A DNA stretch of 64,000 nucleotides from Escherichia coli (GTDB taxonomy: Bacteria; Pseudomonadota; Gammaproteobacteria; Enterobacterales; Enterobacteriaceae). Under the pieces are notes generated by a model that was given only the letters and a program-made list of their open reading frames with translations, ran no database searches and was not told the origin of the DNA. How positions within the stretch are numbered: position 1 is the first letter of the stretch; every line of letters starts with the position of its first letter. The position numbers were made by a program, and so were the translations under genes. The stretch is from the NCBI RefSeq assembly GCF_013315695.1, contig NZ_CP054353.1; one strand, 5' to 3'. This document shows positions 46,584 through 47,983 of this stretch, in pieces.

Positions 46584-47684
46584 ATGCAAAACTGGATAAA
46601 GGCCGCAGTTATCGCCCTAAGCCTGGCGCTGCCCGGCGTGGCGCTGGCGCAATCGCTGGAGTCGCTGGTCAACGTACAAGGCGTGCGTGAAAACCAACTG
46701 GTCGGCTACAGCCTGGTGGTCGGCCTCGACGGTACTGGCGATAAAAACCAGGTCAAATTCACCAACCAGACCATCACCAATATGCTGCGCCAGTTTGGCG
46801 TGCAATTGCCGAATAAAATCGACCCGAAGGTGAAAAATGTCGCGGCGGTGGCAGTGAGCGCCACGCTGCCACCGATGTACTCACGCGGGCAGACTATTGA
46901 TGTCACCGTCTCGTCGATTGGTGATGCCAAAAGTATTCGTGGCGGCACCTTGCTGCTGACCCAACTGCACGGCGCAGATGGCGAGGTTTATGCCCTGGCA
47001 CAGGGCAGCGTGGTGGTGGGCGGGATGAACGCCACCGGGGCCAGCGGTTCCAGTGTGACGGTTAATACGCCAACTGCCGGGTTAATTCCCAACGGCGCGA
47101 CGGTGGAGCGCGAGATCCCCAGCGATTTTCAGATGGGCGACACCATCACGCTCAACCTGAAACGCCCGTCGTTTAAAGACGCCAACAACATTGCGGCGGC
47201 GATCAACGCCTCGTTTGGCGGCATTGCCACGGCGCAGAGTTCCACCAACGTCACCGTGCGTGCGCCCACCAGCCCCGGCGCGCGGGTGGCATTTATGTCG
47301 CAACTGGATGATGTACAGGTGCAGGCAGAGAAAATCCGCGCCCGCGTGGTGTTTAACTCGCGTACCGGCACGGTGGTGATGGGCGATGGCGTTGCGCTGC
47401 ATGCGGCGGCGGTGTCGCACGGCAGTTTGACCGTCTCGATTAACGAAACCAGCAACGTCAGCCAGCCGAATGCCTTTGCAGGCGGGCGCACGGCGGTAAC
47501 GCCGCAGAGCAATATCGCGGTGAATCATGCGCGCCCGGGCGTGGTGAGTTTGCCGGAGTCGAGCAGCCTGAAAACGCTGGTCAATGCGTTGAACAGTTTG
47601 GGCGCGACGCCGGACGACATTATGTCGATTTTACAGGCGCTGCATGAGGCGGGCGCGCTGGATGCCGACCTGGAGGTGATCTGA
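46584..47684 (+). CDS. lfgI: Flag-2 P-ring protein, FlgI homologue
   Basis: ATG 46584 with SD GGAGAG; signal peptide [22 protein letters not shown]. Confidence 0.88.
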
Positions 47685-47983
47685 TGAAAGTGAACGCCAG
47701 CGGCGGGATTGATGGCAGCGATGCGTTAATGGGGCCGAAGGTTCAGGCCAATGATATTAAGCAGGCCGCGGAGCAGTTTGAGGCGATTTTTTTACGCAAC
47801 ATGCTGAAAGAGATGCGTAAAACCAACGAGTTGTTCGATTCGAAAGATAACCCGTTTAACAGCGATTCGGTGCGCATGATGCAGGGGTTTTATGACGATG
47901 AGTTGTGTAACACCCTGGCGCAGCAGCACGGGATTGGGATTGCGGCGATGATTGTGAAGCAGTTGTCGCCGAAGCATAAATGA
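47684..47983 (+). CDS. lfgJ: Flag-2 FlgJ homologue, rod-binding domain only (no muramidase domain)
   Basis: 99 aa; ATGA overlap with lfgI stop. Confidence 0.78.
   Translation: MKVNASGGIDGSDALMGPKVQANDIKQAAEQFEAIFLRNMLKEMRKTNELFDSKDNPFNSDSVRMMQGFYDDELCNTLAQQHGIGIAAMIVKQLSPKHK

What the first reader, a model, noticed from the sequence alone, without database searches (positions are those of the whole stretch)
47684..47983. FlgJ homologue lacks the muramidase domain
lfgJ encodes only the ~100-aa rod-capping domain. The peptidoglycan hydrolase needed for rod penetration must be supplied in trans; candidates in this window are the backbone enzymes mltD and yafL, or the chromosomal Flag-1 FlgJ.
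Basis: partly seen in the sequence, partly recalled or inferred. Interest (0 to 1): 0.4.

Follow-up and report, generated by a model that had tools for sequence, protein, structure and literature searches.

The report
Short rod-cap protein of lateral flagella
The second (lateral, Flag-2) flagellar gene cluster of E. coli encodes a 99-residue FlgJ-like rod-cap protein that really does lack the cell-wall-cutting domain. This is the normal, conserved state for this flagellar family, and related clusters suggest the missing enzyme is a lytic transglycosylase supplied separately.

Summary
It encodes 99 aa with only a Pfam Rod-binding domain (E 3e-14). The region downstream is a triple REP/BIME array with stops in every frame, so no glucosaminidase continuation exists.

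The gene is not a truncation:
- More than 100 orthologues across Enterobacterales are 99-136 aa.
- dN/dS is 0.04-0.09.
- It is full length in 1273 of 5426 complete E. coli genomes.

No peptidoglycan-lytic domain is encoded anywhere in the cluster. The unknown protein LafW folds like flagellin/FlgL.

Supply in trans is plausible, but the named candidates rest only on adjacency. mltD and yafL are backbone genes that K-12 also keeps. Flag-1 FlgJ cannot be the general source, because Pragia fontium has a 103-aa LfgJ and is reported to be motile without flag-1.

New evidence came from sister lateral-type clusters in Pseudomonas and Cellvibrionales. There LfgJ is fused to a catalytically intact SLT lytic-transglycosylase domain. 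That domain is closest to E. coli Slt70 (78 bits) and much further from MltD (30 bits).

The most likely mechanism is a rod cap that recruits a Sec-exported family-1 lytic transglycosylase, as in FlgJ/SltF of Rhodobacter. This is a known kind of system and of low to moderate interest.

The parts
47684..47983 (+). lfgJ CDS, 99 aa: the single-domain FlgJ homologue (rod cap/scaffold) of the Flag-2 lateral flagellar system
   Evidence: ORF. Pfam Rod-binding only. RefSeq names it 'rod-binding protein'. dN/dS is 0.04-0.09 against Pseudocitrobacter and Citrobacter orthologues.
47684..47743 (+). Codons 1-20: poorly conserved N-terminus, predicted disordered. I infer it is the flagellar type III export signal.
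   Evidence: AlphaFold2 pLDDT is below 50 for residues 1-19. The columns are variable in alignments A1/A2. The export role is an inference from what is known of FlgJ.
47807..47962 (+). Rod-binding domain (PF10135), residues 42-93. Together with the preceding helix (from residue 22) it makes a three-helix unit.
   Evidence: Predicted helices are 22-51, 61-80 and 86-94. Invariant residues include Q31, F32, E33, M44, R45, D71, G85 and Q93.
47672..47686 (+). Shine-Dalgarno GGAGG followed by TGATG, where the lfgI stop and lfgJ start overlap (translational coupling)
   Evidence: Read directly from the sequence.
46569..47684 (+). lfgI (P-ring protein), the upstream gene of the lfgBCDEFGHIJ operon
   Evidence: the RefSeq start corresponds to window 46584.
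47984..48403 (.). lfgJ-lfgK intergenic region: three tandem ~117-nt REP/BIME copies (47968-48080, 48086-48198, 48203-48315). No coding continuation.
   Evidence: The 2.5-kb query that contains this region hit 134,939 places in 5425 of 5426 E. coli genomes. In other genera lfgK follows lfgJ directly or after about 100 nt.
48404..49780 (+). lfgK (hook-associated protein 1), the downstream gene
50741..51718 (+). lafW, a Flag-2-specific protein with no Pfam family. I examined it as a possible hidden hydrolase and excluded it.
   Evidence: No Pfam or NCBIfam hit. The AlphaFold2 model (pLDDT 77) matches flagellins and FlgL by Foldseek (E 3e-7). It also co-occurs with SLT-fused LfgJ.
9183..10541 (-). 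mltD, the only lytic transglycosylase in the window.
   Evidence: SLT plus LysM domains. Same position in the Flag-2-less K-12. Scores 30 bits against the fused-SLT profile, compared with 78 for Slt70.
20895..21644 (+). yafL, an NlpC/P60 endopeptidase.
   Evidence: Present in K-12. No similarity to the fused domain.

Best explanation
lfgJ encodes the rod cap/scaffold of the Flag-2 (lateral) flagellum in its native single-domain form.

Proposed sequence of events:
1. The 99-aa protein is translated coupled to lfgI.
2. It is exported through the Flag-2 type III apparatus by its disordered N-terminus (inferred).
3. Its three-helix Rod-binding unit sits on the growing rod (LfgB/C/F/G) and promotes rod polymerisation (inferred from Flag-1 FlgJ).
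4. It has no catalytic domain, and the cluster encodes no cell-wall enzyme. The opening in the peptidoglycan is therefore most likely made by a Sec-exported family-1 lytic transglycosylase that LfgJ and the rod proteins recruit at the assembly site. This is how FlgJ/SltF works in Rhodobacter sphaeroides and FlgJ/BB0259 in Borrelia.

Among E. coli enzymes, the catalytic domain of Slt70 is the closest relative of the transglycosylase domain that sister lateral systems carry fused to LfgJ. That makes Slt70 the first candidate. MltD, MltE and MltC are possible, perhaps redundant, alternatives.

What is shown: the domain content, its conservation, the absence of an enzyme in the cluster, and the existence of LfgJ-SLT fusions in the same flagellar family. 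What is inferred: export, capping, and the identity and recruitment of the partner enzyme.
For: Identity and architecture:
- Pfam Rod-binding only.
- Aligns to FlgJ residues 30-102.
- Sits between lfgI and lfgK in a complete Flag-2 cluster.

Not a truncation:
- All 104 close homologues and the best 120 profile hits are 99-136 aa with PF10135 only.
- The nearest representatives at 47% identity or more are 100-132 aa. Dual-domain proteins appear only at about 43% identity.
- dN/dS is 0.04-0.09, with the stop at the same place in Citrobacter and Pseudocitrobacter.
- Full length in 1273 of 5426 E. coli genomes.

No enzyme in cis:
-.
- LafW has a flagellin/FlgL-like fold.
- No SLT or GH73 ORF lies within 10 kb either side in 33 enterobacterial and 5 Vibrionaceae lateral loci, or in the Pfam-annotated contexts.

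Fusion ('Rosetta stone') evidence:
- In 23 loci of Pseudomonas, Cellvibrionaceae, Saccharophagus and one gammaproteobacterial MAG, LfgJ carries a C-terminal SLT domain.
- The five fusion loci compared gene by gene (L053, L080, L062, L035, L039) are of Flag-2 type: LfgI is 57-60% identical to Flag-2 against 43-47% to Flag-1. A LafW homologue was found in 20 of the 23 fusion loci.
- 21 of the 23 match the strict E-S...G-L/I-M-Q pattern and 22 of 23 the AYNAG pattern.
- This clade is sister to the enterobacterial Flag-2 clade in an LfgG+H+I tree.
- The fused domain scores Slt70 78 bits, MltD 30, MltE 29, MltC 25 and MltF 18. Identity is 40% over 123 aa to Slt70 and 30% over 155 aa to MltD.

Precedents:
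- FlgJ/SltF (PMC7277832).
- FlgJ/BB0259 (PMC8517470).
- EtgA/EscI (PMC10880428 abstract).
Against: - There is no experimental or co-occurrence evidence linking any E. coli transglycosylase to Flag-2.
- A fusion in one lineage does not prove that the unfused lineages use the same class of enzyme.
- The NJ tree suggests that single-domain is the ancestral state of the lateral clade, so the fusion is a later gain.
- Similarity of the fused domain to Slt70 may reflect only general family-1A relatedness.
- E. coli transglycosylases are highly redundant, so no single partner may exist.
- Whether Flag-2 is expressed and functional in E. coli is itself unsettled (PMC6993521).
- P. shigelloides lateral FlgJ is tabulated as 328 aa. 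I could not check its architecture, so not all lateral systems are necessarily single-domain.
Confidence: 0.55

Rival explanations
1. Flag-1 FlgJ supplies the glucosaminidase in trans. The dual-domain FlgJ of the primary system would be exported (through either apparatus) and cut the wall for the lateral rod as well.
For: flgJ is present in 5424 of 5426 complete E. coli genomes, so in essentially every Flag-2 carrier. Its rod-binding domain is 34% identical to LfgJ.
Against: - Pragia fontium, Budvicia aquatica and Tatumella ptyseos are reported to lack flag-1 but to be motile with flag-2 (PMC6993521). P. fontium LfgJ is 103 aa with PF10135 only.
- No lateral-type locus sampled here carried a GH73 fusion. 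The lineages that fused an enzyme chose SLT.
Confidence: 0.12
2. No dedicated or recruited enzyme is needed. The lateral rod passes through gaps opened by ordinary peptidoglycan turnover, and LfgJ acts only as a cap.
For: No enzyme is encoded in the cluster in any of 38 single-domain lateral loci. From my own knowledge, the N-terminal half of Salmonella FlgJ alone gives weak motility (Hirano et al. 2001, cited in PMC7277832 ref 9; not read here).
Against: Peptidoglycan pores are stated to be narrower than 2 nm, against a rod several nm wide (PMC8517470). Every single-domain system studied has turned out to use a specific transglycosylase. One lateral lineage fixed an intact SLT fusion, which argues that local lytic activity is selected for.
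Confidence: 0.18
3. The neighbouring backbone enzymes MltD or YafL are the dedicated partners.
For: MltD is a family-1 lytic transglycosylase, and its SLT domain is detectably similar to the fused domain (E 6e-10). It may well be one of several redundant contributors.
Against: Both genes lie outside the cluster and are kept at the same positions in Flag-2-less K-12. MltD scores 30 bits against 78 for Slt70. YafL is an NlpC/P60 peptidase with no similarity to the fused domain and no flagellar precedent found here.
Confidence: 0.08
4. lfgJ is a decayed remnant: a dual-domain gene truncated by the REP/BIME insertion, sitting in a cluster that is non-functional in E. coli.
For: A 420-bp REP array sits exactly where a second domain would begin. 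Flag-2 function in E. coli is doubted in the literature.
Against: The stop is at the same position in genera that lack the REP array, where lfgK follows directly. dN/dS is 0.04-0.09. No GH73 or SLT remnant exists in any frame.
Confidence: 0.02

Closest known systems
Single-domain FlgJ plus the flagellar lytic transglycosylase SltF of Rhodobacter (Cereibacter) sphaeroides Fla1
   Same: FlgJ has the rod-scaffold domain only. The cutting activity comes from a separate SLT-family enzyme that is Sec-exported and targeted by binding FlgJ (PMC7277832). This is the mechanism I propose for LfgJ.
   Different: sltF is encoded inside the flagellar flgG operon. No such gene exists in the E. coli Flag-2 cluster or within 10 kb of lfgJ in 38 single-domain lateral loci. 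The partner here, if there is one, is unidentified.
Dual-domain FlgJ of E. coli/Salmonella Flag-1 (TIGR02541; Rod-binding + GH73 glucosaminidase)
   Same: A homologous N-terminal rod-binding region (34% identity over 77 aa) and the same gene position between flgI and flgK.
   Different: LfgJ ends 6 residues after the conserved VKQLS motif. It lacks the linker and the GH73 domain (FlgJ residues 160-295).
LfgJ-SLT fusion proteins of lateral-type clusters in Pseudomonas (mendocina, alcaliphila and nitroreducens groups), Cellvibrionaceae and Saccharophagus, found here
   Same: The same flagellar family, with Flag-2-like LfgB-L in the five loci compared and LafW in 20 of the 23. The rod-binding domain is 39-48% identical to E. 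coli LfgJ.
   Different: These proteins are 347-375 aa. After a linker of about 60 aa they carry a family-1 SLT domain with the E-S, GLMQ and AYNAG motifs.
Borrelia burgdorferi single-domain FlgJ plus BB0259 (an SLT enzyme)
   Same: A single-domain FlgJ that interacts with a separately encoded SLT enzyme needed to pass the peptidoglycan (PMC8517470).
   Different: The flagella are periplasmic, the Borrelia FlgJ acts at the hook/filament stage rather than on the rod, and the lineage is distant.
EtgA-EscI of the EPEC/EHEC injectisome
   Same: In E. coli, a peptidoglycan glycosidase is localised to a type III machine by binding its inner-rod protein (PMC10880428 abstract).
   Different: This is a non-flagellar T3SS. 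The enzyme is encoded in the same island, and there is no FlgJ-like cap.

Membership tests
FlgJ N-terminal / Rod-binding protein family (Pfam PF10135) | Match to the Rod-binding profile above the gathering score | tested here: met
   53.7 bits against a cutoff of 25.1, E 3.1e-14, covering profile positions 1-51 of 51.
FlgJ N-terminal / Rod-binding protein family (Pfam PF10135) | Gene lies between the P-ring gene (flgI) and flgK in a flagellar rod/hook operon | tested here: met
   The order is lfgI-lfgJ-lfgK, with a start/stop overlap to lfgI. The same order is seen in all related loci.
FlgJ N-terminal / Rod-binding protein family (Pfam PF10135) | Exported by the flagellar type III system and binds rod proteins as a cap | not testable with these tools
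   Only indirect support: the N-terminal 20 residues are predicted disordered, as is typical of fT3SS substrates.
Dual-domain flagellar peptidoglycan hydrolase FlgJ (NCBIfam TIGR02541 equivalog) | Whole-protein score above the curated cutoff | tested here: not met
   68.1 bits against a cutoff of 193. Only profile positions 20-91 of 294 are matched.
Dual-domain flagellar peptidoglycan hydrolase FlgJ (NCBIfam TIGR02541 equivalog) | C-terminal GH73 glucosaminidase domain (PF01832) | tested here: not met
   Absent from the protein, from the downstream DNA in all frames and from the whole window.
Two-component rod cap plus dedicated flagellar lytic transglycosylase (FlgJ/SltF type) | FlgJ without an enzymatic domain | tested here: met
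Two-component rod cap plus dedicated flagellar lytic transglycosylase (FlgJ/SltF type) | An SLT-family gene encoded in the flagellar cluster | tested here: not met
   No SLT, GH73 or other lytic domain in the Flag-2 cluster 22434-60619, or within 10 kb of lfgJ in 38 single-domain lateral loci.
Two-component rod cap plus dedicated flagellar lytic transglycosylase (FlgJ/SltF type) | Physical interaction of FlgJ with the transglycosylase, and dependence of flagellation on it | not testable with these tools
   Indirect only: natural LfgJ-SLT fusions exist in the sister lateral clade.
Flag-2 / lateral flagellar gene system (Ren et al. 2005; De Maayer et al. 2020) | Presence of lafK, lafW and lafZ, which have no Flag-1 orthologues, and the position between yafL/rayT and dinB | tested here: met
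   A sigma-54 activator at 29051-30037, lafW at 50741-51718 and lafZ at 52022-52915, flanked by rayT and dinB. The criteria come from PMC6993521.

The most novel reading that the evidence does not exclude
LfgJ would be an adaptor that docks a housekeeping family-1A lytic transglycosylase (Slt70 or a redundant set) onto the nascent lateral rod. A general autolysin would then double as a flagellar assembly factor. The LfgJ-SLT fusions of Pseudomonas and Cellvibrionales lateral clusters would record this partnership. Lateral flagella would thus have kept a modular cap/enzyme arrangement that the primary beta- and gamma-proteobacterial system replaced with a GH73 fusion.
Probability: 0.35. Interest if true: 0.45.

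Novelty: already known. Interest (0 to 1): 0.25.

Why it matters
Opening the cell wall locally without lysing the cell is a general problem for envelope-spanning machines. For Flag-2/lateral flagella, which occur in about a quarter of E. coli genomes and in many Enterobacterales, nobody has shown which enzyme does this. The papers I could search do not discuss it, including the two comparative Flag-2 studies.

The result here narrows the question in three ways. The enzyme is not in the cluster. Flag-1 FlgJ is not a general answer. The family's own fusions point to Slt70-type lytic transglycosylases. The question therefore becomes testable with a handful of deletion mutants.

The work also flags a widespread annotation error: 100-135-aa Rod-binding-only proteins and two NCBIfam models carry the name 'peptidoglycan hydrolase'.

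The single-domain FlgJ phenomenon itself is textbook for alpha-, delta- and epsilon-proteobacteria and spirochaetes, so the finding as stated is ordinary.

Tried and rejected
- In-frame or frameshifted continuation: rejected. There are stops in all six frames, and the region is REP/BIME DNA.
- Hidden hydrolase among the cluster's unknown or cargo ORFs: rejected.
  - 35524-35928 is a glycerol-3-phosphate cytidylyltransferase.
  - 36065-38593 is a GT2/glycerophosphotransferase.
  - 38700-39668 is FliB-like.
  - 56165-56518 has no family above threshold.
  - LafW has a flagellin/FlgL-like fold.
- PDB sequence search with LfgJ and with LafW: nothing significant.
- Reading the primary papers: Ren et al. 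2005 (PMC545627), Stewart & McCarter 2003 (PMC165745) and de la Mora 2007 (PMC2168687) are not held. I therefore could not verify whether the short LfgJ was already remarked on in print.
- The two De Maayer comparative papers do not mention FlgJ, LfgJ or peptidoglycan at all.
- V. parahaemolyticus VPA0272 and P. shigelloides FlgJ_L (tabulated as 328 aa): my last protein search, seeded with a Vibrio lateral LfgJ, returned only other Vibrio and Photobacterium Rod-binding-only proteins of 170-232 aa. The architecture of those two model proteins stays unchecked.
- The closest dual-domain representatives: P0114 sits in a polar-type cluster with cheV/cheR and flaG. P0122 lies on a 6-kb contig too short to classify. 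Neither showed a lateral-type context.
- One slicing error in a script was redone correctly.
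Full report
**What the window is.** The window is E. 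coli chromosome. It is 99.9% identical to isolate AF3 (NZ_OZ547117.1), and its coordinates coincide with locus L002. It carries a complete Flag-2 (lateral flagella) cluster from lfhA (22434) to lafU (60619). The cluster is inserted between yafL/rayT and dinB. RefSeq marks none of its genes as a pseudogene.

**Checking the observation.** The ORF at 47684-47983 (+) encodes 99 aa.
- Its ATG overlaps the lfgI stop (TGATG), and a GGAGG lies 8 nt upstream.
- Pfam finds one domain, Rod-binding PF10135, at residues 42-93 (E 3.1e-14).
- The protein aligns with residues 30-102 of the 313-aa K-12 FlgJ (34% identity, E 4e-14).
- K-12 FlgJ has its Glucosaminidase domain at 160-295. LfgJ stops 6 residues after the conserved VKQLS motif.
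- The full-length FlgJ equivalog TIGR02541 is missed by a wide margin (68 bits against 193).
- Downstream, 47984-48403 has stops in all frames and is made of three tandem ~117-nt REP/BIME copies. lfgK starts at 48404.
- tblastn with the C-terminal parts of 54 long FlgJ homologues found only MltD's SLT domain at 9837-10169. Local HMMs for GH73 and SLT domains, run on every stop-to-stop ORF, gave the same result.

**The gene is not a truncation.**
- All 104 close homologues (Citrobacter, Scandinavium, Dryocola, Buttiauxella, Pseudescherichia and others) are about 100 aa with PF10135 only.
- The best 120 hits of a profile search are 99-136 aa with PF10135 only.
- In an exhaustive search of 1.84 billion representatives, the nearest relatives at 47% identity or more are 100-132 aa. 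Dual-domain proteins appear only at about 43% identity (E about 1e-12).
- Against Pseudocitrobacter and Citrobacter orthologues, dN/dS is 0.04-0.09, and the stop is at the same place.
- lfgJ is present and full length in 1273 of 5426 complete E. coli genomes at 90-100% identity (all but three at 95% or more).
- In other genera lfgK follows lfgJ directly or after about 100 nt. The REP array is therefore a later insertion of the E. coli lineage into an intergenic site. It did not cause the short protein.

**Anatomy.** AlphaFold2 on a 17-sequence alignment gave modest confidence (pLDDT 68). It predicts a disordered N-terminus (residues 1-20) and three helices at 22-51, 61-80 and 86-94. Invariant residues cluster in QFE (31-33), MR (44-45), D71, G85 and Q93. 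A disordered N-terminus fits export by the flagellar type III system, but that is an inference.

**Is a wall-cutting enzyme hidden in the cluster?** No. The ORFs not obviously flagellar are these:

| Window coordinates | What it is |
|---|---|
| 35524-35928 | glycerol-3-phosphate cytidylyltransferase |
| 36065-38593 | 842-aa GT2 + CDP-glycerol glycerophosphotransferase |
| 38700-39668 | weak FliB-like lysine methylase |
| 52022-52915 | LafZ, a winged-helix regulator |
| 56165-56518 | small protein with no family above threshold |
| 59663-60619 | LafU, MotB-like with an OmpA domain |
| 50741-51718 | LafW, no Pfam or NCBIfam family |

LafW is the one conserved Flag-2-specific unknown. I modelled it from 30 orthologues (pLDDT 77, with the core above 90). 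Foldseek matches flagellins and FlgL (P. aeruginosa FliC E 3e-7; Legionella FlgL). This agrees with its label as a 'putative hook-associated protein' (PMC6993521). It is not a hydrolase.

**Comparative evidence.** A scan of one genome per species with an LfgJ profile returned 80 loci. I classified them with local HMMs and by similarity of the flanking genes.
- *Single-domain group.* 33 enterobacterial loci and 5 Vibrionaceae loci have Rod-binding only. None has an SLT or GH73 ORF within 10 kb either side.
- *SLT-fused group.* 23 loci encode a 347-375-aa protein with Rod-binding, a linker of about 60 aa and an SLT domain (PF01464), confirmed by Pfam for three of them. They come from Pseudomonas (mendocina, alcaliphila, chengduensis, toyotomiensis, khazarica and composti groups; the nitroreducens group; plecoglossicida; others), Cellvibrionaceae, Saccharophagus and one gammaproteobacterial MAG.
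- *These fused clusters are of Flag-2 type.* In the five I compared gene by gene (L053, L080, L062, L035, L039), LfgI is 57-60% identical to E. coli LfgI against 43-47% to FlgI, and LfgH is 55-60% against 33-38%. A LafW homologue follows lfgL in those five and was detected in 20 of the 23 fused loci.
- *The fused domain looks catalytically intact.* 21 of 23 match the strict E-S...G-L/I-M-Q pattern, and 22 of 23 match AYNAG.
- *GH73-fused group.* Alteromonadales, Idiomarina, Colwellia and beta-proteobacterial loci carry Rod-binding + GH73 and fall in the primary-type clade.

In an NJ tree of LfgG+H+I, the lateral clade has Photobacterium and Vibrio (single-domain) branching first. The SLT-fused clade and the enterobacterial single-domain clade then follow as sisters. 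Parsimony favours single-domain as ancestral and one gain of the SLT fusion. The tree is NJ with midpoint rooting and no support values, so this is tentative.

**Which E. coli enzyme resembles the fused domain?** I built a profile from the 23 fused domains and scored the E. coli family-1 enzymes.

| E. coli protein | Score against fused-SLT profile |
|---|---|
| Slt70 | 78 bits (E 3e-25) |
| MltD | 30 bits |
| MltE/EmtA | 29 bits |
| MltC | 25 bits |
| MltF | 18 bits |
| YafL | not significant |
| FlgJ | not significant |

Pairwise, the P. mendocina domain is 40% identical over 123 aa to the Slt70 catalytic domain, including the catalytic ES (E 5e-23). It is 30% identical over 155 aa to MltD (E 6e-10).

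- mltD (9183-10541) and yafL (20895-21644) are backbone genes. K-12 keeps only lfhA/lafU pseudogene remnants of Flag-2, yet it has both genes at the same positions. Adjacency therefore carries no information.
- Flag-1 flgJ is in 5424 of 5426 genomes, so it is available in E. coli.
- However, De Maayer et al. report Budvicia aquatica, Pragia fontium and Tatumella ptyseos as lacking flag-1 while being motile and carrying flag-2 (PMC6993521).
- I confirmed that P. fontium LfgJ is a 103-aa Rod-binding-only protein in a typical Flag-2-type cluster with no lytic gene nearby.
- Flag-1 FlgJ is therefore not a general requirement of this flagellar family.

**Mechanism proposed.** LfgJ is the Flag-2 rod cap/scaffold. 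The wall opening is most likely made by a Sec-exported family-1 lytic transglycosylase recruited to the rod tip.
- Precedents are FlgJ/SltF in R. sphaeroides (PMC7277832), FlgJ/BB0259 in Borrelia (PMC8517470) and, in E. coli itself, EtgA/EscI of the injectisome (PMC10880428).
- Slt70 is the first candidate by similarity to the fused domain. Redundancy among transglycosylases is likely.
- Shown: architecture, conservation, absence of an in-cluster enzyme, and fusions in the sister clade.
- Inferred: export, capping, and the identity and recruitment of the partner enzyme.
- Rivals: Flag-1 FlgJ in trans (0.12), no dedicated enzyme (0.18), MltD or YafL specifically (0.08), decayed remnant (0.02).

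**Novelty.** Single-domain FlgJ proteins that work with a separate transglycosylase are well established. RefSeq already labels this gene 'rod-binding protein'. The finding as stated is therefore already known in kind and ordinary. Two things appear not to be discussed in the literature I could search: the SLT-fused LfgJ variant in Pseudomonas and Cellvibrionales lateral clusters, and its use to predict the Flag-2 partner.

**Caveats.**
- The architecture of the experimentally studied lateral FlgJ proteins was not checked. These are V. parahaemolyticus VPA0272, A. hydrophila LfgJ and the P. shigelloides FlgJ_L tabulated as 328 aa.
- The Vibrio and Photobacterium lateral homologues I did see are 169-232 aa with PF10135 only, some with long N-terminal extensions.
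- The 10-kb flanks do not cover whole clusters in other species.
- My SLT and GH73 HMMs would miss other lytic folds. For the E. coli cluster, Pfam, NCBIfam and RefSeq annotation cover that gap.

Noticed in passing
window 47968-48315 (array within 47984-48403); rayT at 21821-22318: Three tandem ~117-nt REP/BIME copies fill the lfgJ-lfgK spacer. Other genera have 0 to about 110 nt there. A REP-associated tyrosine transposase gene (rayT) sits at the left border of the Flag-2 cluster. The array may act as an mRNA stabiliser or attenuator between the rod/hook operon and lfgKL.
   Followed up: partly
window 48345-48370 (+): A sigma-28-like motif, TAAG-N15-GCCGCTT, lies 34 nt upstream of the lfgK start. 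It could be a LafS-dependent promoter for lfgKL-lafW. The evidence is weak: 2 matches in the window against 0.46 expected.
   Followed up: partly
window 50741-51718 (lafW): LafW is the Flag-2-specific protein with no Pfam family. It is predicted (pLDDT 77) to have a flagellin/FlgL-like fold with a central alpha/beta domain and a disordered N-terminal 48 residues. Orthologues were found in nearly all LafW-type lateral clusters sampled, including 20 of the 23 Pseudomonas/Cellvibrionales fusion loci, but not in the Vibrio and Photobacterium loci.
   Followed up: yes
window 35524-39668 (between lfiJ and lfgN): The cargo genes are a TagD-like glycerol-3-phosphate cytidylyltransferase, an 842-aa GT2 + TagF-like CDP-glycerol glycerophosphotransferase and a weak FliB-like lysine methylase. 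Together they suggest glycerol-phosphate-type modification and/or methylation of the lateral flagellin.
   Followed up: no
protein databases: NCBIfam NF009349/NF009351; P0253, P0262, P0272, P0279, P0280: Many 100-135-aa Rod-binding-only LfgJ homologues are named 'peptidoglycan hydrolase (FlgJ)', although they have no hydrolase domain. Two short NCBIfam equivalog models (profile lengths 97 and 129) carry the same name. The name has been carried over wrongly.
   Followed up: partly
P0192: A 4064-aa representative protein has 14 separate stretches matching the LfgJ rod-binding region. I did not examine this unusual repeat architecture.
   Followed up: no
window 4755-6335: dkgB is split by an IS1A insertion (transposase at 5337-6034) in this strain.
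   Followed up: no
window 9183-21644 (backbone left of Flag-2): Several cell-wall-related backbone genes lie close together: mltD, ivy (a lysozyme inhibitor), dpaA (an Lpp-peptidoglycan amidase) and yafL (NlpC/P60). All are also in K-12, so this is probably coincidental with respect to Flag-2.
   Followed up: partly
L092 (K-12 1243180-1244527): emtA (mltE, a lytic transglycosylase) lies next to ycgR, the flagellar brake gene, in K-12. The two converge, with their ends 2 nt apart.
   Followed up: no
L046 9608-10306; L050 9926-10435: Vibrionaceae lateral LfgJ homologues carry extra low-complexity sequence: about 125 aa N-terminal in Vibrio qingdaonensis and about 60 aa C-terminal in Photobacterium. 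Neither extension has a recognisable domain.
   Followed up: partly
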